The position numbers were made by a program, and so were the translations under genes. Shown piece by piece: positions 24,376 through 50,504 of a stretch of DNA of 64,000 bases (position 1 is the stretch's first letter; each line of letters begins with the position of its first letter). The notes beneath the pieces were generated by a model. The model was not told the DNA's origin. It did no database searches and saw only the letters and a program-made list of their open reading frames with translations. This DNA comes from Bdellovibrionota bacterium (lineage in GTDB: Bacteria; Bdellovibrionota_C; UBA2361; CAKMMH01): NCBI GenBank assembly GCA_050952645.1, contig JBMNLI010000017.1, forward strand, positions 96,001 to 160,000, in the 5' to 3' direction.

Positions 24376-24717
24376 AACCTTCTACCTCTCCTTTTTCTGA
24401 GCAGGTGAAAACCAGCTAAGCTAAATAGCAAAGCTTAAAAACAAATTATGCTTTTTAAAAAAGCGTAATTACCCTTTAAAAAAATAACATATCTAGGCTT
24501 TTAAATCAATTAAAATTTTAAATAGACAAACAGACAAAACAAATATATTAACTTATATTTTTTACTTCCTAAATTATACTAAATTACTCAAAACTTATTC
24601 TCTTTCTTTTAAGGTGCTAGAGGTGGTGGCACTATCATTCCATTATCTTCACAAGAACCACAAAGAGGCGCCATATAAGTAGAGCCATCATTTCTAATGC
24701 ATCGTGTTATAGGACAC

Positions 24718-27700
24718 TTAAGAAACTACACACCTGCCACTTTCACACCTTAGTTTATAGCTATCACAATCTGCATCATTTTCGCAAAGCTTGCCATAAT
24801 TCTTTTCCCCAAGCGAACACCTGTATATATCATCCTCAAACCGTATACAATTACCTCCGCAACATTCTTCAGTCATACTGCCTGGCGTGCAACCTAAAGG
24901 TTTAAAATTCTCCCCAGACATACAATTATACTCTCCTTTACATTCGCCATTATCACACGTTCTTCCTTCGCCACAACACTCACCACCACATAACGGCTCA
25001 CGACAACAATATTCATAAATATCATGCGTATATATACGATCTATCTCACAGCAACCACTTCCTAAGTATGATGTATAAGCAACTTTACCCTCATCGCAAC
25101 ATTTAGAACCATCGTAAACTCTCTCTGTTGGGCAACACGTCCCATTTACAAACTTACCATCGCAACATTCACTTCTATCATTATAACAATCTTGCTCACT
25201 AGAACAGCAATTAGTTCCACAAGCATAAGAACCACTTTCGCAACTCGCTTGGCTTTCTAAACTTTTACTAGATACACTACTTACAGATTCCGCTTCATAA
25301 CTATTATAACTTCCACTAGATGTGCTACTTTCACTTTCGTTTGTACACCTACCAGTATTTTCATCATATGCCTCACCAGATGGACAACATGCAAATATCT
25401 CTGTTTCCCAATTGCTATATGCGCAATACTCTCCAAGTTTACAACAGGAAGAGCCACACGTTCCAGTCGTATTATCTGTAAGTGGGTTGCAACAAACATC
25501 TATTAGTTCTCCTGTAAAACTATTCGTCACACTCCCAACATAATAATCGTTAGGTCTAGCACAGCAACCTTGATAATCAGGATCATTTGAATCTGTATAA
25601 ACAGTCCCATCACAACAGTATTGCTTAGTATCAGAAGCACTTCTATAAACAGTTCCATTACAACACGTATAAGTTATTTTTCCAAGTATTAATTCATTTA
25701 TCATACTTTCATCTGCCTCTTTCAAGCTATTCTCTTGAGCTTCTGTTAGCGATGACATACATTTATCGGCATCACAGCATACACCAGAAGGACATTGAAC
25801 CTGTCCATCTTTAGAACAACACGATCTAGCTGGCACAACTTCCCGTGTTCCATCTTCATGAATACGAATATACCTAAAAGAATCTTTTATATCGGCACAA
25901 TATATAGCTTCTGGATCATCTCCCTCAACACCAGTTGGGCAACAACTCCCCCCACAGTAAACTGAATCCTCTAAACAACACACAGGTTCCCCAGAAGGAT
26001 TAAATTTCTCACCTTTCTCTATGCCTAATCCTTTAAGTTTAGGAGTTCCTTCAGGACAGCAATATCCCATAACATAGCTTTCACCATCAACTTGAACTAC
26101 TTCTTCGCCTGCTACAAAACCTTCACCGCAGTCAAAAGAGCATGTAAATGTTATATTGCTATTTTGATCCATATGATACTGTGCAATTTCTCCATCTTCA
26201 CAGCATAATTTTTCTCCGAACTCTCCTTCAAAATAATTCTCATCTTTGCAACAACCATCCCCGGGGTCGCCATTTTCTTTATTGCAACACCTATTATCAT
26301 TCCCACTAGGATTATTACCATCGATATTATCCATGCACGTATACCCAGCAGGACACGTACAGCCTACAAATGGTGGCAAACTACTAGAACTAGAATAACT
26401 ATCGCTATAAGAATAACTAGAAGAACTACTATAAAAATAATTTGGTCTACTTGAACTAGATTGAGAACTATAACTACTAAAAGATGAACTCGAACTTAAT
26501 GATACCGACACTCTACTTAACGAAGACGAAACGCTTCCTAGAGATATAGAAAAACTACTAGGTGCCAAAGAATAATTGCTAGACTTACTAGACAATGAAG
26601 AGCCACTAAATAAAGAACCGTTAGATATACTAGATACAGATGATATAACACTACTTAAAGAACTTAAGCTACTACTAGGCGATAAACTGCTTTTGCTACT
26701 AGACGATGAACTCTTACTAGAAGAGCTACTGCTAGATAAACTTTGCGAACTGCTTTTACTAAAACTACTTGAACTCAAACTTAAAGAGCTAGACGATGAA
26801 CTCTTACTACTAGATGATAAACTAGAACCTAAAGAGCTAGAAGAACTACTACTTAGCGAAGAACTACTACTTAGCGAAGAACTCTTACCACTAGATGAAC
26901 TGCTTTTGCTACTAGACGACGAACTAGGACTTAAAGAACTAAACGAACTACTACTAGGTGAACTACTCTTGCTCGAACTGCTTTTGCTACTAGAAGATAA
27001 GCTAGGACTTAAAGAGCTAGAAGAACTACTACTTAGCGAAGAACTCTTACTAGATGAAGAGCTAGAACTACTAGATGAAGAACTCTTACTTGAACTAGAA
27101 CTACTTTTACTACCAGAAGATGAACTACTACTAGACGAACTTGATAAGCTACTTTTACTACTTAACGATGAACTTTTACTTAAACTAGAACTTAATGAAC
27201 TAAAAGAACTACTACTAGGCGAACTACTCTTACTACTAGACGGACTACTACTAGATGAAGAACTCTTACTAGAACTGCTTGAACTAGGGCTACTAGAAGA
27301 ACTTAATGAACTGCTCTTGCTACTAGAAGATGAACTCTTACTAGAAGAACTACTCTTGCTTGAACTAGGACTTAAAGAACTACTTGACGAAGAACTTTTA
27401 CTAGAGCTACTTTTGCTACTAGAACTACTACTTAATGAACTAGCTGAACTGCTCTTACTACTAAAAGATAAACTACTCTTACTACTAGATAAAGAACTCT
27501 TACTAGAACTAGAACTTTTCTTACTAGAACTAGAACTTTTCTTACTAGAACTACTACTGCTAAGCGAACTACTAGAACTGCTAGGCGATAATGAACTACT
27601 ACTACTAGAAGAACTAGGATATGAGCTACTACTACTAGATGCACTGCTACTAGATAAACTGCTCCTACTAGACGATGAACTGCTAGATGACGAACTGCTA

Positions 27701-27930
27701 CTAGACGAACTCCCCTTAGGTGAACTAGATGTATCGAAAATTTGCGCAGTCCTAAAAAAACCTACATGAAACGAATCTGCTATGAGAGGCTCATCACCTA
27801 ACAACTTAAATATATCTAATATTATACCAGACTTAATATAAATCTTCCCTCCCTTCATTGTCCTAAGTTTTATCGTCTCACTTTCTTTATCAACGGGAGC
27901 AAAATCTAAATATTCTTCCTTCTTCCACAA
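24718..27930 (-). CDS. Large Ser-rich/Cys-rich surface protein (main segment of a probably frameshifted gene 28553-24609)
   Basis: ~450-aa poly-Ser tract (~27733-26380) followed by many CC/CxxxCC motifs. Confidence 0.8.
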   Translation of the reverse strand: MWKKEEYLDFAPVDKESETIKLRTMKGGKIYIKSGIILDIFKLLGDEPLIADSFHVGFFRTAQIFDTSSSPKGSSSSSSSSSSSSSSSRSSLSSSSASSSSSSYPSSSSSSSSLSPSSSSSSLSSSSSSKKSSSSSKKSSSSSKSSLSSSKSSLSFSSKSSSASSLSSSSSSKSSSSKSSSSSSSLSPSSSKSSSSSKSSSSSSKSSSLSSSSSPSSSSSSKSSSSSSSPSSSKSSSPSSSSFSSLSSSLSKSSSLSSKSSLSSSSSSSSSSGSKSSSSSSKSSSSSSSSSSSSKSSSLSSSSSSSLSPSLSSSSKSSSSKSSSPSSSSFSSLSPSSSSSSKSSSSSGKSSSLSSSSSLSSSSSSSLGSSLSSSSKSSSSSSLSLSSSSFSKSSSQSLSSSSSSSKSSSSSSKSSLSPSSSLSSLSSVISSVSSISNGSLFSGSSLSSKSSNYSLAPSSFSISLGSVSSSLSRVSVSLSSSSSFSSYSSQSSSSRPNYFYSSSSSYSYSDSYSSSSSLPPFVGCTCPAGYTCMDNIDGNNPSGNDNRCCNKENGDPGDGCCKDENYFEGEFGEKLCCEDGEIAQYHMDQNSNITFTCSFDCGEGFVAGEEVVQVDGESYVMGYCCPEGTPKLKGLGIEKGEKFNPSGEPVCCLEDSVYCGGSCCPTGVEGDDPEAIYCADIKDSFRYIRIHEDGTREVVPARSCCSKDGQVQCPSGVCCDADKCMSSLTEAQENSLKEADESMINELILGKITYTCCNGTVYRSASDTKQYCCDGTVYTDSNDPDYQGCCARPNDYYVGSVTNSFTGELIDVCCNPLTDNTTGTCGSSCCKLGEYCAYSNWETEIFACCPSGEAYDENTGRCTNESESSTSSGSYNSYEAESVSSVSSKSLESQASCESGSYACGTNCCSSEQDCYNDRSECCDGKFVNGTCCPTERVYDGSKCCDEGKVAYTSYLGSGCCEIDRIYTHDIYEYCCREPLCGGECCGEGRTCDNGECKGEYNCMSGENFKPLGCTPGSMTEECCGGNCIRFEDDIYRCSLGEKNYGKLCENDADCDSYKLRCESGRCVVS

Positions 27931-44523: not shown

Positions 44524-45996
44524 ATGCAAAAAGATGTAATTATTATCGGTTCTGGTCCAGGGGGCTACATAGCTGCAATAGAGTGTGCAAAAAGAAACAG
44601 AAAAGTTTCACTAATAGAGATGGGCGATATTGGAGGGGTATGCTTAAATTACGGTTGCATGCCTACTAAAGCTTTGCTTCATAGTGCTAAAGAGGTTTTA
44701 AGCGTAAGAAATGCAAAAGAGCGTTCTATAATTTCTTTAGATGATTTTACGATTAACTACCCAAAGATTATTCAAAACTCTAGAGAAAAAGTTTTAAAAT
44801 TGCAAAATGGCGTAAGATTTTTAATGAAAAAATATAATGTAGAAATTATAAATGCTAAAGCAACATTTAAAAGCAAAAATGAGGTAGAATTAGAAATTAA
44901 CAATTTAGAAAATGGTAATTTAGATAAAAATAATTTAGATAAAATTAGCGGGAAAGGAACGATAACTTTTAACGATGCTATTATTGCTACGGGAAGCACA
45001 CCTAGAGTGCTTCCTAATATTCTAGTCAATGGGATAAACGTTCATAACTCAAAAACTTTTTTAGTAAATGAAAAAATGCCTAAAAATGTACTTATTATAG
45101 GGTCTGGCTCGATAGGTCTTGAGTTTGCTTCATTTTTAAATGCGTTAGGCGTTAATGTTATAATCGTTGAGGCTTTAGATAAGGTTATGCCTCAAGCGGA
45201 TGCTACAATTTCTAATACATTAAAGAGAAGTTTACAAAATAGAGGGATAACTATTCACACATCTTCGAGTATTTCTAGTTTTGAAAATAAGAATAATGAT
45301 ATAATAGATGTAGTTATAAAGAATAAAAAAGACGAAGAGATATCTTTTAAGGTAGACATGTGCTTAGTATCGATAGGAGTAGTCCCTAACACTAAAGATT
45401 TAGGATTAGAAAATGCTAATATTTTGCTAACTGAAAGGGGCTTTATAAAAGTAAATGATGATATGCAAACTAGCACGGCTAACATTTATGCCATAGGCGA
45501 TGTTATAGGGCTTCCTACGTTAGCGCACGTTGCAAGTAGAGAGGCTCTTATTGCGAGTGCTTCGTTATGTAGTAGTAGTAATAAATGTGATAGTGAATGT
45601 GATAATAAATGCAGTAATGAAAACAACACTGAAAGCAAGTTTAATAAAAATGTTATTCCTTATGGAACTTATAGTTTTCCTCAAGTTGCGAGCGTTGGAT
45701 TAACTGAGGAGCAAGCAAAGGCGCAGGATTTACCTTATAAGAGCGTTCGTATTCCGTTTTCAGCGAATGGCAAAGCGGTAGTTTCAGATGAAGACGAGGG
45801 TTTAATAAAACTTATATATGATACAGAAACTAAAAAAATATTAGGCTGTCATATTATTCAAGAAAACGCAGTCGAGTTAATTACGGAAATTACTTTAGCT
45901 ATAAACAATGATTTAACTTGCGATGATATAGCAAAGACTATCCACGCCCACCCTACTTTATCGGAGATAATAGCCGAGGTCTCAGCTCTCTTTTAA
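44524..45996 (+). CDS. lpdA: Dihydrolipoyl dehydrogenase
   Basis: GSGPGGY, GGVCLNYGCMPTK, ATGS, GSGSIGLE, AIGD, HAHPTLSE. Confidence 0.95.
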   Translation: MQKDVIIIGSGPGGYIAAIECAKRNRKVSLIEMGDIGGVCLNYGCMPTKALLHSAKEVLSVRNAKERSIISLDDFTINYPKIIQNSREKVLKLQNGVRFLMKKYNVEIINAKATFKSKNEVELEINNLENGNLDKNNLDKISGKGTITFNDAIIATGSTPRVLPNILVNGINVHNSKTFLVNEKMPKNVLIIGSGSIGLEFASFLNALGVNVIIVEALDKVMPQADATISNTLKRSLQNRGITIHTSSSISSFENKNNDIIDVVIKNKKDEEISFKVDMCLVSIGVVPNTKDLGLENANILLTERGFIKVNDDMQTSTANIYAIGDVIGLPTLAHVASREALIASASLCSSSNKCDSECDNKCSNENNTESKFNKNVIPYGTYSFPQVASVGLTEEQAKAQDLPYKSVRIPFSANGKAVVSDEDEGLIKLIYDTETKKILGCHIIQENAVELITEITLAINNDLTCDDIAKTIHAHPTLSEIIAEVSALF

Positions 45997-46076: not shown

Positions 46077-48689
46077 CTAGTGGGTCCATATTATGGTAAC
46101 CAACAATTTCACAATAAAGTTTTTTTCTTTATTATTGTTATCAATACACGATATAGGCTTTTTGAGTTTTTCAGAGCAAAATTCATAGGCCACCCAATAT
46201 TCACAGGATGGCTTTTCGAGCCTGCAACCATTTTCCGATACTATTATTTTATAGCTAGGTACTTCATGATAAGCAATTCCCATTATAGCGTGAGCCTCTA
46301 AAACAATCTCGCTTTGTCCACTTTCCCTAAGTAATTTTTGCATTTTTTCACAAAGAGTCTCATTCGTTTCTTGATCAGGCTTTTCCATATAATCCATAAC
46401 ATCTTCAATTCCTCCAAACCCGCTACAACCTCCATCTTTAACATTACATATAGAACAAGTTCCGCTAGAACAATCCATTACTAACTCAGGTAGTTTTTTT
46501 CCATTAAAATTACCAGAATGAGCTCGGAACTCTAAAGATAGAGTTTTGCATTGCGGATTTTTTTCTTTGTAATTTTTAACATATTCTTTTACATTATCTG
46601 ACACATAAGATATAACCAAATTAGAGTAAGCTCGTAGTCTTAATTTAAATTCCTTATACGTAAATTTTTCACAACCATCAAGACCAACTTTAGTAGGTGC
46701 TACAGCTTCAGACAAAATCTTACAATATTTTTTTTTATCTTTATTAAATTTTCTCTTAGATATTTTTTTTAATATTTGAAATTTTTTTAAGTCTACCAAT
46801 TCGGAATATCCGACATCCGTATTAAGATAACCCTCAGGATGAGAACAACTACTTTTCCATCTATTTACACATTCACCATTCTTATTATATTCACATCTTT
46901 GTATTATACTACCACCTTCATCGGTTTCAATAGAATTAATCATTCGCACTGCCGCAGCATGCACTAGCGATATTGTAGCAAAGCCTAATTGAGTACGACC
47001 ATCATGTAAATCCGTACAAGGAAGACGATCCCAATATTTAGAATCATAACACTTTCTTCTAACATATTCACGCATATATTCATATTGCTTTATATAATTT
47101 TCATTATTTTTACAGTGCTTATCTCTACACTGATAAACTTTAAAATCCTTAGGATTATTATCTTCATAAAAACATATATGACATTTATCAGCACAATCTT
47201 GAACATACTTAGGAGCTTTCTTCCCATCTAAATCTATTGCACTAGCTACTTTGCAATCTGTAATTTTAATATCATTAGAGTTGCTAGCCTTATAATTATT
47301 ACTGTCTTTATCTCCACCTTGTGGCATTACGTGTATTATATTTGAACACTTTCCGTTTACGCACTCTCTACCTTCACAATCTCTAAAGCTTTTACAAGGC
47401 GCCCCGAATGTACACATAGGAAGACTGCAAAATTTTTCTCCAAATTGTTTGTTTATTTCGTAAGACGTCATGCAAACCCCTCCACAACAATCTGCATCAC
47501 TTTCACAAGCGTGCTTTTTTACTTCACAAAAACAGTCTCTTTCTTTTTTAACACAACACGATACATTAGACTTTTCTTCGCTTGTAAGATTACCAAAAGC
47601 ACTCACATCACAACTATTTTCATTTCCTTCTTCTACTTGCTGTTTGCATGCATCATAACCAACAACAAGCTCATACCCTTCACCACAACACTCTTGTTTA
47701 TTATCTTTTTCGTCTGTAAATTTTATACATCTAGAAACTCCCATATGTGTTATGCAAATATCTTCTCCGCAACCTCCATTATTCACACAACATTCACTAG
47801 TAGCTTGGTAATCTCCAAAATCACTCTCTAGAAACATCGCTACATCTTCATCGCTAAGCGCATCTATTGCATCTTTTAAGTAATCTTTTTTAGTATTATC
47901 ACTATCATTCTTAACATTATTAGAAGCTTTACTATAAGACACTGCTTTACTTTTTATTGTAGCTTGGCTTTTATTGGCACTAGGAGTGCTTTTAGCATAA
48001 CTTTGCGAGTCTCTCATATAACTAGGAACTGTACCTATGCTTTTAACAGAGCTAACAGCACCAACACTTTTAGCATTTTTAACATAGTTAGAAGCTTTAC
48101 TATAAGACACTGCTTTACTTTTTATTGTAGCTTGGCTTTTATTGGCACTAGGAGTGCTTTTAGCATAACTTTGCGAGTCTCTCATATAACTAGGAACTGT
48201 ACCTATGCTTTTAACAGGGCTAACAGCACCAACACTTTTAGCATTTTTAACATAGTTAGAAGCTTTACTATAAGACACTGCTTTACTTTTTATTGTAGCT
48301 TGGCTTTTATTGGCACTAGGAGTGCTTTTAGCATAACTTTGCGAGTCTCTCATATAACTAGGAACTGTACCTATGCTTTTAACAGGGCTAACAGCACCAA
48401 CACTTTTAGCATTTTTAACATAGTTAGAAGCACTCTTCATATAGCTAGGATATAGATTATAGCTAGGTGCTGAATACGCACTTCCTCTACTTTGTGCTAA
48501 TGCATCACTATAAAAAATAAAACTAAAACTTAAAATTAGAAAAAAACTTAAGAAAGATTTCTTAAGGTTGGTTGGTTGGTTGGTTGATTGGTTGGTTGGT
48601 TGGTTGGCTGGTTGGTTGGTTGGTTGGCTGGTTGGTTGGTTGGTTGGTTGGTTGGTGCAAGAATAATGCCAACATTTATTTATTCTCAT
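46077..48689 (-). CDS. Large secreted Cys-rich repeat protein with 5' SSR
   Basis: TNQP repeats, signal peptide ending ALA|Q, 3x56-aa repeats, Cys-rich C-terminal two-thirds. Confidence 0.82.
47906..48431. repeat. 168-bp tandem repeat x3 plus partial copy
   Basis: TAGAAGC anchors at 47921, 48089, 48257, 48425 (spacing 168); copies nearly identical. Confidence 0.95.
48566..48656. repeat. Tetranucleotide SSR (GGTT)n / (AACC)n, ~22-23 units with 3 variant units
   Basis: Directly visible; lies 33 nt after the ATG of 46077-48689. Confidence 0.97.
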
Positions 48690-49303
48690 ATTTTTCCCTT
48701 TTTTTTATAAAAAATATATTTATTTAAAATTATTCTAACTTTGTAGTTTATCGGGTAAAATGCTAATAAAACTTTAACCTAAAAAACTACTTACTAACTC
48801 TTAACCGTTTATACATTAAATGCAAAATAAATTTTTTAGTTTCATTTTTGATTAAATTTAAAAAACAAAACTAGCAACGTATTGATTTTATTATATTAAA
48901 AAAAATACATTTTTGCGTTTCTTTATATTAATATTTTTCTTTACTCTCTGCATTTAAACCTAAAAATTAAGCCTTTTAAAAAAGCCTTAAAAGAAAACAC
49001 GAAAACTAAAATTAAATAATACCTAGGGGGTTATTTACTTTAGGGTTATTTACTCGATAATTTAATTTAAACGTGAAGTGCCGTTTCTTTTTCCTTTTTA
49101 ATTTTCTTTTTTTGATTGAAACAAAAATATTGTAAATTGTAATATTTAATTTAGATGCTTCGTTTATTTCGATGTATCTTACTAAAAAAAGTTCATATAG
49201 TCTTCATATAGTCTTTATATAGTCTAATGGCTCTATTTATATTTTTTTATAAGCTCCTTTAAAAATTACTAAGTCCCTTTAATAGCCTTATTTCTAATAA
49301 TAT

Positions 49304-49397: not shown

Positions 49398-50504
49398 ATG
49401 TCTAAAGTAAATGATATTGTTAGACATAATTTAGAAGGTTGGCACAGTGCCAAGTTCTTAGAATGTTTTTTTTCATTGGATTTAGAAGGTGTAATAAAAG
49501 CATTAAATTCGATAGAAAGTGATGAATGGAAAAGGTTGATTAACAACACCGATATAATTCGGGTAATTCATCTCTACTACTTAATGCTTAGGGCAATTCA
49601 GCCTAACGGCGAACAAGATGAAATTAGTGCAAATAAAATCATTAGGTTTATTGAGGGAAACAAGTTAATAATTCTTCCACACGAAGATGAAGAAGCTTTT
49701 GGTGCAGATGAATACACGATAAAGCTTATAGCAGAAGATGCTGCAAAGGCTTTAAGAGAAGAGGACCAGCATGCCTTTGAAGTGCTAGATGCAATAGATA
49801 AAAAAGTTGCAGAGGCGATTTTAGACTTGCCTCAAACTTTCCAAATGCTCGAAGAAAGGCTTGACATTTGGGCCTCCTACAACAACACCATAGTTGGTAA
49901 TAAGGGGCAACCACCGAGTGAATACTATAATGCAGAAGAATTTCTTCGCTTTGCGTATGAAAATAAATTGATGTCAGATGAGGAAAATAACATCATATAT
50001 CGCATCAATGAAAAAGTGCAAAGCTACCTTGCTAAAACATTAAACGACTACTCTCCCTCTTTGCCAAATAAACTTTGGGCATATATGGCTAAGGAAGAGC
50101 AAGAAAGGTTTATAAGAGACCAAAAAAACCAAAACAAGGAAGAATCTTTTGCGTGCGAAGGTAATGATAAAAGTGCCGCTGATTTCTTCGTAAGGATACT
50201 ATTAAGTTGTTTTATAAATGGCGACTTTGCTACTGCTAAAGTGATCGTCAACTTAAGTTGTAGAAAAGAAATCATTGAAGCCCTTGAGAATTCTATTTGG
50301 TATTTCCCAATGGTTCGTGCTTCAATTAATATTTTAAATCCTGCTAGGAACGAGGGAAACAATCTTCTTGATCCTAACAGAGACGCTCCCTCTCGCCAAG
50401 CGAATAGTAAATGTATTAAGGCTCTTATGGATTGGGCAGAAAAGTTTAACCATTTCGTAGTAAAAGATGAAAATTTGTTTTCTTCTTCTTTTAGCGAAGA
50501 ATAA
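49398..50504 (+). CDS. Hypothetical acidic helical protein
   Basis: 368-aa ORF with GAGG RBS, candidate promoter and terminator. Confidence 0.8.
   Translation: MSKVNDIVRHNLEGWHSAKFLECFFSLDLEGVIKALNSIESDEWKRLINNTDIIRVIHLYYLMLRAIQPNGEQDEISANKIIRFIEGNKLIILPHEDEEAFGADEYTIKLIAEDAAKALREEDQHAFEVLDAIDKKVAEAILDLPQTFQMLEERLDIWASYNNTIVGNKGQPPSEYYNAEEFLRFAYENKLMSDEENNIIYRINEKVQSYLAKTLNDYSPSLPNKLWAYMAKEEQERFIRDQKNQNKEESFACEGNDKSAADFFVRILLSCFINGDFATAKVIVNLSCRKEIIEALENSIWYFPMVRASINILNPARNEGNNLLDPNRDAPSRQANSKCIKALMDWAEKFNHFVVKDENLFSSSFSEE

What the first reader, a model, noticed from the sequence alone, without database searches (positions are those of the whole stretch)
48566..48689. (AACC)n contingency locus at the 5' end of a large Cys-rich secreted protein
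Seen: a 91-bp tetranucleotide tract lies between the ATG (48689) and the hydrophobic signal core and encodes TNQP repeats; it is currently in frame (ON). A second ATG in another frame (ATG TTG GCA...) also precedes the tract. Known: CCAA/QPTN tracts near the 5' end of Haemophilus hgp genes cause slipped-strand ON/OFF switching. Inferred: phase variation of a surface protein in a deltaproteobacteria-like lineage, suggesting host, prey or phage selection. Three variant units may dampen slippage.
Basis: partly seen in the sequence, partly recalled or inferred. Interest (0 to 1): 0.7.

Follow-up and report, generated by a model that had tools for sequence, protein, structure and literature searches.

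The report
Shared repeat switch on surface-protein genes
About 23 four-letter DNA repeats sit between the start codon and the predicted export signal of a cysteine-rich protein gene in an uncultured bacterium, and the same start region heads a second, unrelated gene out of frame, so the repeat likely works as a slow random on/off switch, although switching itself was not seen.

Summary
The tract is real: 91 bp of AACC units with three variant units, by far the strongest four-base repeat in this 1.95-Mb genome, in frame between ATG 48689 and a signal peptide of an 870-aa, 48-Cys orphan protein. The architecture matches Haemophilus hgp. New here: (1) the same 5' region (359-bp upstream block, ribosome site, both ATGs, tract, signal) heads an unrelated Cys-rich gene on contig C7, where a shorter, more interrupted tract leaves it out of frame; (2) an allele in another sample differs at 32 codons, 31 changing the amino acid (pN/pS about 9), pointing to diversifying selection; (3) a sigma-54 promoter consensus abuts the tract in both copies, unexplained. 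Switching was not shown: only contigs were available and none spans the tract; one run indicates that the two short 3' runs are unchanged, and the longest pure run is only 7 units. Best reading: a slow, interruption-damped contingency locus (0.55); main rival: a frozen or decaying one (0.25). The host is probably Bdellovibrionota. Earlier notes of this scan report the same kind of switch in other genomes, not this locus.

The parts
48738..49096 (-). Distal upstream block, 359 bp, shared with the C7 locus (357 of 359 aligned bases identical plus one 17-bp indel); at C7 its first bases form the last codons of an ECF sigma gene
   Evidence: not found in G001-G003 beyond short AT-rich matches
48696..48700 (-). 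Shine-Dalgarno-like AAGGG, 6 nt before ATG1 (the C7 copy has AAGGAG)
   Evidence: sequence; SD-like 4-mers precede 366 of 1062 long ORFs against 8.5% of all ATGs on the + strand
48687..48689 (-). ATG1, in frame with the gene body (ON state)
   Evidence: the public gene call P0001 also starts here
48673..48675 (-). ATG2, other frame, no SD-like motif; out of frame here, in frame but followed by a TAA at C7
48656..48672 (-). Sigma-54 -24/-12 consensus (GG-N10-GC; TGGCAY-N5-TTGCA) inside codons 6-11, kept in the C7 copy; predicted start site near 48645, inside the tract; function untested
   Evidence: consensus recalled; start-site offset from PMC4591121
48566..48656 (-). Interrupted (AACC)n tract, about 23 units, three variants, two identical 20-bp AGCC-(AACC)4 blocks; encodes TNQP repeats (Pfam PT, PF04886)
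48495..48563 (-). Signal-peptide core: KK, hydrophobic stretch, A-L-A cleavage motif (residues 43-65); cleavage inferred by eye, no predictor run
   Evidence: hydropathy windows; 46 of 54 aligned bases identical with the C7 signal
47906..48431 (-). 3.1 tandem copies of a 168-bp (56-aa) Ser/Ala/Lys-rich unit, 98% matches: probable stalk
47010..47792 (-). Cys-rich modules (residues about 300-560), shared in part with two distant homologues P0005 and P0006
   Evidence: no Pfam family above cut-off
46080..47003 (-). C-terminal region (residues 563-870); in run X6, 31 of 32 changed codons in 563-836 are non-synonymous and none of its 13 Cys changes
46077..48689 (-). Whole ORF, 870 aa, 48 Cys, no membrane anchor evident besides the signal; convergent with lpdA-like gene 44524-45996

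Best explanation
The AACC tract is likely a frameshift on/off switch in the leader of a predicted exported cysteine-rich protein, and it would switch slowly because three variant units break it into short runs. Shown: ribosome-site-like motif, ATG1, 11 codons, the tract and a signal peptide lie in one frame here; the same 5' region heads a second, unrelated Cys-rich gene on contig C7 where the tract is shorter and the frame is broken. Inferred: during replication the tract gains or loses a 4-bp unit, most likely in the 7-unit run next to the start, or a 20-bp AGCC-(AACC)4 block; either change shifts the frame, translation then stops within a few codons of the tract end and no protein is exported. 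Inferred: the protein is a surface or secreted binding protein under attack or selection by prey, host or phage, which would explain both the switch and the excess of amino-acid changes between alleles. Inferred: the 5' region is a reusable cassette that brought both genes under one promoter region and one kind of switch; the C7 copy is now mostly stuck OFF.
For: Layout identical in kind to hgp (CCAA tract in the 5' coding region; PMC9341677 passages). Non-triplet unit in coding DNA, top period-4 tract of the genome, rare in the class (2 of 124). No in-frame ATG/GTG/TTG between tract and hydrophobic core in either copy, so translation has to cross the tract. The two copies share the AATC-(AACC)4 core but differ on both sides of it (92 vs 49 nt between the same anchors; 126 vs 83 nt from ATG1 to KK), and each holds internal duplications (two 20-bp blocks here; AATT blocks at C7), which are fossils of slippage. 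At C7 the frame of the body is open from the middle of the tract on and for 320 codons, one unit off ATG1. A Logan short-read record of the C7 protein is also called from an internal ATG (P0003). Allele in run X6: Nd 34, Sd 1 over codons 563-836, pN/pS 9.4, Fisher p 0.003, two 3-nt deletions, no Cys touched. Interrupted CCAA tracts occur in hgp genes too: 6 of 7 interrupted tracts (PMC2651432 passages). An independent pure AACC tract directly after GAGGA+ATG, out of frame with a 110-codon frame, in G005 of the same order.
Against: No length variant of this tract was observed. None of the 4 runs laid gave a contig across it. The 217-nt X1 record matches the simulated k=31 unitig only if the 5-unit and 4-unit runs at the 3' end are as assembled and not visibly mixed; contigs drop rare variants, depth was 5.8, and X1 may be the source sample. 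The Haemophilus fit u = 2e-5 L - 2e-4 reaches zero at 10 units, above the longest pure run here (PMC3546556 passages). The C7 tract has a pure run of only 4 units and TAA codons in both ATG frames, more like decay than a live switch. The two distant homologues start with Met plus signal and no TNQP array. The sigma-54 consensus inside the leader is not explained by this model. The X6 differences rest on contigs of depth 3.6-5.2, 40 of 65 listed rows, with no housekeeping-gene control.
Confidence: 0.55

Rival explanations
1. Frozen or decaying contingency locus: the tract once switched, but point changes have stabilised it, ON in the window gene and OFF (early pseudogene) at C7.
For: Three variants here and about five at C7; pure runs of at most 7 and 4 units; TAA in both ATG frames at C7; no sign of mixing in the two short runs in X1; fitted Haemophilus rate is not positive below 10 units.
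Against: The two identical 20-bp blocks show expansion after a variant arose; hgp genes carry interrupted tracts that still differ in length between strains; the C7 body is still an open frame of 320 codons; the 7-unit run was not tested.
Confidence: 0.25
2. The real promoter is the sigma-54 site; transcription starts inside the tract, which is an unstructured A/C-only 5' leader, and the open frame from ATG1 is incidental or a second, minor route.
For: Both copies keep GG-N10-GC with TGGCAY and TTGCA while three spacer-side bases differ. The genome encodes RpoN and three strong sigma-54 activator domains. The site scores 8.5 of 9.5, like sites upstream of six genes that look flagellar by their N-termini (names by recalled resemblance). 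Only 1 of 1244 ORFs, this one, has such a site in its first 60 nt. The strict pattern occurs 24 times in 5 genomes against 4 for the reversed control. Cys-Trp-His is odd for a signal n-region. Motif-to-KK distances (92, 49 nt) are like the 41-232 nt seen for the flagellar-like genes.
Against: No ATG, GTG or TTG, and no conserved near-cognate codon or SD, lies between tract and hydrophobic core in either copy; the first downstream ATGs lie past the signal. ATG1 has an SD-like motif in both copies. 9 of 21 sites scoring 8.5 or more fall inside ORFs, and in E. coli 85 of 135 sigma-54 sites are intragenic, mostly inactive and without roadblock effect (PMC4591121 passages). The motif was noticed after the fact.
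Confidence: 0.12
3. Neutral microsatellite or in-frame spacer: the tract grew by drift in a dispensable n-region and selection merely keeps it in frame; no ON/OFF role.
For: The genome is rich in low-complexity tandem repeats (121 rows in the window); homologues manage without the array.
Against: Most coding repeats listed have periods that are multiples of 3; a 4-bp unit is costly in coding DNA; it is the only strong period-4 tract of the genome and sits at the hgp-type position in both copies.
Confidence: 0.05
4. Assembly artefact: tract structure or the C7 frameshift come from sequencing error.
Against: Four of the 7 lie within about 6 kb of contig ends, unlike either locus. Runs X1-X3 show no gaps against the window over the laid parts; X1 record ends (47949; 48066-48117; 48402 with 217 nt) equal the simulated unitig ends. 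P0003 from a 1570-nt Logan contig is also called from the internal ATG.
Confidence: 0.03

Closest known systems
Haemophilus influenzae hgpA/B/C (CCAA)n contingency loci
   Same: Same repeat unit, same place (5' coding region), non-triplet unit, similar total length (hgp 4-39 units in the table passage seen), interrupted tracts also recorded (PMC9341677 and PMC2651432, passages). Pfam PT repeat hit.
   Different: The passenger is an orphan Cys-rich protein, not a haemoglobin receptor; host is an uncultured environmental bacterium; three interruptions rather than one; the leader is shared by two non-homologous genes, whereas hgp genes are paralogues; switching is not demonstrated; a sigma-54 consensus overlaps the leader.
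H. influenzae lic1A / lic2A (CAAT)n with several start codons in different frames
   Same: Two ATGs in different frames upstream of a tetranucleotide tract (recalled; only the title of Dixon et al. 2007 was seen, in a reference list; the paper was not held).
   Different: ATG2 here has no SD-like motif and is closed by a TAA at C7; the genes are not glycosyl or choline transferases.
Neisseria opa (CTCTT)n coding repeats in the signal peptide (recalled)
   Same: A frameshift repeat in the leader of an exported protein, shared by several loci.
   Different: Pentamer inside the hydrophobic core versus tetramer in front of it; opa loci are homologous throughout.
Sigma-54 (RpoN) -24/-12 promoters and intragenic sigma-54 sites
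   Same: GG-N10-GC with TGGCAY/TTGCA; RpoN and activators present; intragenic sense sites are common in E. coli (PMC4591121 passages).
   Different: Here the site lies 17 nt after the start codon and directly abuts a repeat tract; no downstream start codon could serve a transcript from it.

Membership tests
Tetranucleotide SSR contingency locus (hgp type) | Non-triplet simple repeat, far above chance length, in the 5' coding region | tested here: met
Tetranucleotide SSR contingency locus (hgp type) | Start codon upstream of the tract and none in frame between tract and functional part | tested here: met
   (sequence only; the used start was not measured)
Tetranucleotide SSR contingency locus (hgp type) | Unit loss or gain closes the frame shortly after the tract | tested here: met
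   both other frames stop within 8 codons of the tract end; C7 copy is out of frame
Tetranucleotide SSR contingency locus (hgp type) | Repeat number varies among strains or within a population at the same locus | tested here: inconclusive
   no contig spans the tract in 4 of 4 runs; two short runs unchanged in X1, longest run untested; only the two paralogous copies differ
Tetranucleotide SSR contingency locus (hgp type) | Reversible high-frequency ON/OFF switching of expression | not testable with these tools
   uncultured organism; no raw reads or RNA runs offered
Tetranucleotide SSR contingency locus (hgp type) | Gene product is surface-exposed or modifies the surface | tested here: inconclusive
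   signal peptide and 48 Cys imply export; no anchor, family or fold found
Hgp haemoglobin-haptoglobin receptors | TonB-dependent beta-barrel receptor body | tested here: not met
   Pfam scan of the whole protein gives only PT above cut-off; homologues give none
Sigma-54-dependent promoter | GG-N10-GC with TGGCAY / TTGCW consensus | tested here: met
Sigma-54-dependent promoter | RpoN and enhancer-binding activators encoded in the genome | tested here: met
Sigma-54-dependent promoter | A translatable start codon downstream of the predicted start site and upstream of the signal | tested here: not met
   no in-frame ATG/GTG/TTG in either copy
Sigma-54-dependent promoter | RpoN-dependent transcript starting about 12 nt after the GC | not testable with these tools
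   no RNA holder listed

The most novel reading that the evidence does not exclude
A portable switch cassette: one 5' module (upstream regulatory block, ribosome site, embedded sigma-54 site, AACC tract, signal peptide) is grafted onto unrelated, fast-evolving cysteine-rich genes in an uncultured Bdellovibrionota-like bacterium, making any passenger exported, phase-variable and possibly tied to the sigma-54 flagellar programme; the variant units tune the rate and add a 20-bp step size.
Probability: 0.2. Interest if true: 0.7.

Novelty: new member of a known kind. Interest (0 to 1): 0.45.

Why it matters
Repeat-driven phase variation is best known from host-adapted pathogens. A case in an uncultured, probably predatory or host-associated bacterium from digester-type samples, on a gene whose alleles differ almost only by amino-acid changes, would mark the protein as a front line in an arms race with prey, host or phage and name a concrete candidate for how this lineage attaches. 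The two loci also give a small view of how contingency loci are born and die: a leader shared by unrelated genes, one copy expanded and ON, the other eroded and OFF. The mechanism class itself is old, and switching is not shown, which caps the interest.

Tried and rejected
Tract length in public runs: 4 of 17 listed runs were laid (X1, X2, X3, X6), all contigs; none spans the tract. No RNA holder listed. Close homologues of the body: only itself among 4999 candidates; shorter fragments: only an unrelated TNQP-rich protein among 6112 candidates; metagenome contigs: 442 pattern matches, none a relative; 41 related genomes: besides G000 only a weak 52-residue Cys match in G001 and repeat-only matches in G005; P0006 found nothing in 123 other class genomes. 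DNA around P0005, P0006 and P0003 could not be obtained, so the P0006 leader (MANQP..QS, one-unit-like) is untested. A 23-nt leader pattern in metagenome contigs gave 6 hits, none with a tract; their look prompted the sigma-54 idea. Structure: AlphaFold2 mean pLDDT 42 both alone and with 3 sequences; Foldseek 0 matches at E<=0.001; VIA-align best Z 6.4 to generic helical bundles, none at Z>=8; PDB profile search best E 0.27; Atlas no usable hit and only sub-0.9 Cys-rich leads for the C7 protein: no fold can be named. Sigma-70 scan: 14 sites against 16.7 expected, uninformative. RNA folding of the leader: z 0.02. Rfam: 0 matches in 3 loci. Direction of the duplication: the G001 sigma tail aligned no better than shuffles with either side of the C7 insertion (252 and 384 of 500 shuffles as good), so donor and recipient are unresolved. 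Other Cys-rich ORFs of the genome: apart from these two, none of the 19 listed has a sigma-54 site scoring above 4.5 in its upstream 300 nt, so there is no general sigma-54 link. Literature: Bdellovibrio + phase variation + simple sequence repeat gave 1 paper, on phage coevolution (listing only); Bdellovibrionota + Cys-rich surface protein gave nothing relevant among 12 listed of 14 (listing only); most subscription papers are not searched.

Full report
Observation. The minus strand reads ATG AGA ATA AAT AAA TGT TGG CAT TAT TCT TGC, then a 91-bp run of AACC units at 48656-48566, then a Lys-Lys and a hydrophobic stretch ending in A-L-A. The run is (AACC)6, AGCC, (AACC)4, AGCC, (AACC)4, AATC, (AACC)5, with a longest perfect stretch of 28 bp. 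ATG1 at 48689 is 126 nt from the Lys-Lys, so the 870-codon frame is open; ATG2 at 48675 is 112 nt away, out of frame. Both other frames stop within a few codons of the tract end. The tract is the strongest period-4 repeat in the 1.95-Mb genome (score 57, next 25), and six perfect units occur in 2 of 124 genomes of the class.

Organism. The genome has 17 contigs, 31% G+C, completeness 93.75%. The two best hits of a window housekeeping protein among GTDB species genomes are Bdellovibrionota MAGs at 60% identity (80 kept of at least 581; a third hit at 61% over a shorter stretch is a Clostridium), and earlier notes on this genome say the same; I take the phylum as probable. The three best-holding runs are digester, unspecified and bioreactor metagenomes.

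The protein. After the signal come 3.1 copies of a 56-residue Ser/Ala/Lys-rich unit, Cys-rich modules and a C-terminal region; 48 Cys in all. Pfam gives only the PT repeat above cut-off. A full HMMER read of 1.84 billion representatives with residues 264-870 returned 3 proteins: itself, P0005 (38% over the matched stretches) and P0006 (30%). Both begin with Met and a signal and have no TNQP array; P0006 begins MANQP..QS, which may be a one-unit remnant, but its DNA was out of reach. No fold could be assigned. Export is inferred from the signal and the Cys content; surface attachment is not shown.

A second copy of the 5' region. A genome-wide scan for AACC-like runs found three: this one, a short intergenic run after a tRNA-like sequence, and one at C7:135242-135279. 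The C7 locus shares a 359-bp upstream block (357 of 359 identical, one 17-bp indel), a more diverged stretch before the start (38 of 48), the leader (31 of 35) and the signal (46 of 54), but then encodes a different Cys-rich protein with an EB module; tblastn of the window protein matches only its first 25 residues there. At C7 the tract region is 49 nt instead of 92, with a pure run of 4 units; ATG1, which has a canonical AAGGAG, is 83 nt from the Lys-Lys and so one unit off frame, and ATG2 is in frame but meets a TAA at the first unit. The body stays open for 320 codons. In G001 (same genus, 91% complete) the ECF sigma gene is followed directly by the hydrolase, and lpdA by map, with neither Cys-rich gene at those places, and the upstream block was not found in G001-G003. 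The uneven identity implies an older shared leader and a recent copying of the distal block; the direction could not be resolved.

Is it an assembly error? Of 265 G001 ORFs from 20 stretches, 218 had orthologues in G000; 8 hit two frames (one is a tandem duplicate, 7 look frameshifted, 4 of these near contig ends) and 3 more had deep stops, so errors exist at a few percent. Against that, runs X1-X3 show no gaps on the laid window parts, and a k=31 simulation reproduces the X1 record ends at 47949, 48066-48117 and the 217-nt record from 48402. A Logan member of the C7 protein cluster, on a 1570-nt contig, is called from the internal ATG too; the simulation says a contig can cross the C7 tract, so this is indirect support for a real OFF state, though it may be the source sample.

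Does the tract vary? Not shown. No contig in the 4 runs laid spans it. The 217-nt X1 record fits only if the 5-unit and 4-unit runs at the 3' end are as assembled and not visibly mixed; changes in the 7-unit run leave that length unchanged and are untested. Contigs drop rare variants and depth was 5.8. In Haemophilus the rate fit is u = 2e-5 L - 2e-4 (PMC3546556, passages): about 2.6e-4 if all 23 units counted, not positive for 7. Interrupted CCAA tracts are nonetheless known in hgp genes (PMC2651432, passages). The two identical 20-bp blocks show that this tract expanded after a variant arose, and 20 is not a multiple of 3. The genome encodes MutL. In G005 of the same order a pure AACC tract follows GAGGA and ATG directly, out of frame with a 110-codon frame, an independent use of the same unit.

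Selection on the passenger. Run X6 holds an allele about 4% different over two contigs (24 differences in 625 nt, 41 in 896 nt). The table lists 40 of 65 rows, ordered by place up to 47003; the 25 unlisted rows match the remainder of the second contig, so I used codons 563-836 only and left out 5 rows near a 1-nt insertion close to the stop. There 32 codons change, 31 non-synonymously; Nd 34, Sd 1, pN/pS 9.4, Fisher p 0.003; 0 of 13 Cys change; the two longer indels are 3 nt. This points to diversifying selection, with the caveats of depth 3.6-5.2, one allele pair and no housekeeping control.

An unexplained sigma-54 site. The bases just before the tract, TGGCAT-TATTC-TTGCA here and TGGCAC-CGTTC-TTGCA at C7, fit the sigma-54 -24/-12 consensus (consensus recalled). 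The genome encodes RpoN and three strong activator domains. Of 21 sites scoring 8.5 or more, 12 are intergenic, six of them before genes that look flagellar by recalled N-terminal resemblance, and 9 lie in ORFs. The strict pattern occurs 5 times in G000 against 1-3 in Markov controls and 24 times in 5 genomes against 4 reversed; this gene is the only one of 1244 with such a site in its first 60 nt. A transcript from it would begin near 48645, inside the tract (offset from PMC4591121, passages), and would have no start codon before the signal in either copy. In E. coli 85 of 135 sites are intragenic, mostly inactive, with no roadblock effect (same paper). I therefore keep ATG1 as the start and leave the site as a probable real binding site or relic of unknown role.

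Verdict. The best-supported mechanism is a slow frameshift switch in the leader of an exported, rapidly diversifying protein (0.55); a frozen or decaying version of the same (0.25), a sigma-54-driven 5' leader (0.12), a neutral spacer (0.05) and artefact (0.03) follow. It works like Haemophilus hgp (PMC9341677, passages) but the protein is not an Hgp, and the defining test, variation in repeat number, is inconclusive. Searches of the held literature found no report for Bdellovibrionota (listings only), and earlier notes of this scan describe the same kind of switch in other genomes but not this sequence. No supplementary files were opened. New member of a known kind; interest 0.45.

Noticed in passing
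L001:6753-8252 (G000:C7:134753-136251): Second locus with the same 5' region heading an unrelated 320-codon Cys-rich EB-module frame, out of frame, inserted between an ECF sigma gene and a hydrolase; absent at that site in G001.
   Followed up: yes
L035:9285-9680 (G005:C129): Pure AACC tract of about 12 units directly after GAGGA and ATG, out of frame with a 110-codon frame that has no Pfam hit besides PT: a cleaner candidate contingency locus in the same order.
   Followed up: partly
window 48544-48565: Directly after the tract an 8-bp AT-rich inverted repeat is followed by seven T on the minus strand; it overlaps the stops of the OFF frames and could add polarity, but may be a by-product of Phe/Leu codons (fold; not counted as a terminator).
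   Followed up: partly
G000:C12:127499-127522: (TA)12 immediately after a TTGAC hexamer in an intergenic stretch, like a promoter-spacer repeat of the Haemophilus hif type.
   Followed up: no
G000:C12:66801-66824: Perfect (CATA)6 about 25 nt upstream of a GGAG plus GTG start; probably untranslated leader.
   Followed up: no
L174 (G000:C10:202169-202184, minus): Strict sigma-54 consensus followed by about 2.6 kb without a same-strand ORF of 80 codons; possible small RNA; no Rfam match.
   Followed up: partly
G000 genome-wide: Sigma-54-type sites with TTGGYA...TTTGCW precede at least six genes that look like flagellin, hook, hook-cap, FlhB, FlgK and FliD, suggesting an RpoN-run flagellar programme (names by recalled resemblance).
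   Followed up: partly
window about 24700-27858 (minus): A 1046-aa Ser-rich, Cys-rich ORF starting MKGGKI, one of four near-identical starts in the genome (C7, C12, C14, C17); three more related Ser/Cys-rich ORFs cluster at C17:315000-322700.
   Followed up: no
window 47906-48431: The 168-bp stalk repeat may differ in copy number: contig depth over it is about 3.5x single-copy in X1 and about 2x in X6; weak, contig depths only.
   Followed up: partly
window 49398-50504: 368-aa ORF without Pfam hit, divergent from the Cys-rich gene; G001 has a different 470-aa ORF downstream of bamA, so this site takes lineage-specific genes.
   Followed up: partly
L001:947-2248: 433-aa ORF that looks like a group II intron reverse transcriptase, 1.3 kb upstream of a pilT/pilU-like pair (names by recalled resemblance).
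   Followed up: no
P0005, P0006, P0001 C-terminal region: All three keep an H-S pair after a predicted strand (P0001 His724-Ser725) and a shared Cys pattern; no fold or catalytic role could be assigned.
   Followed up: partly
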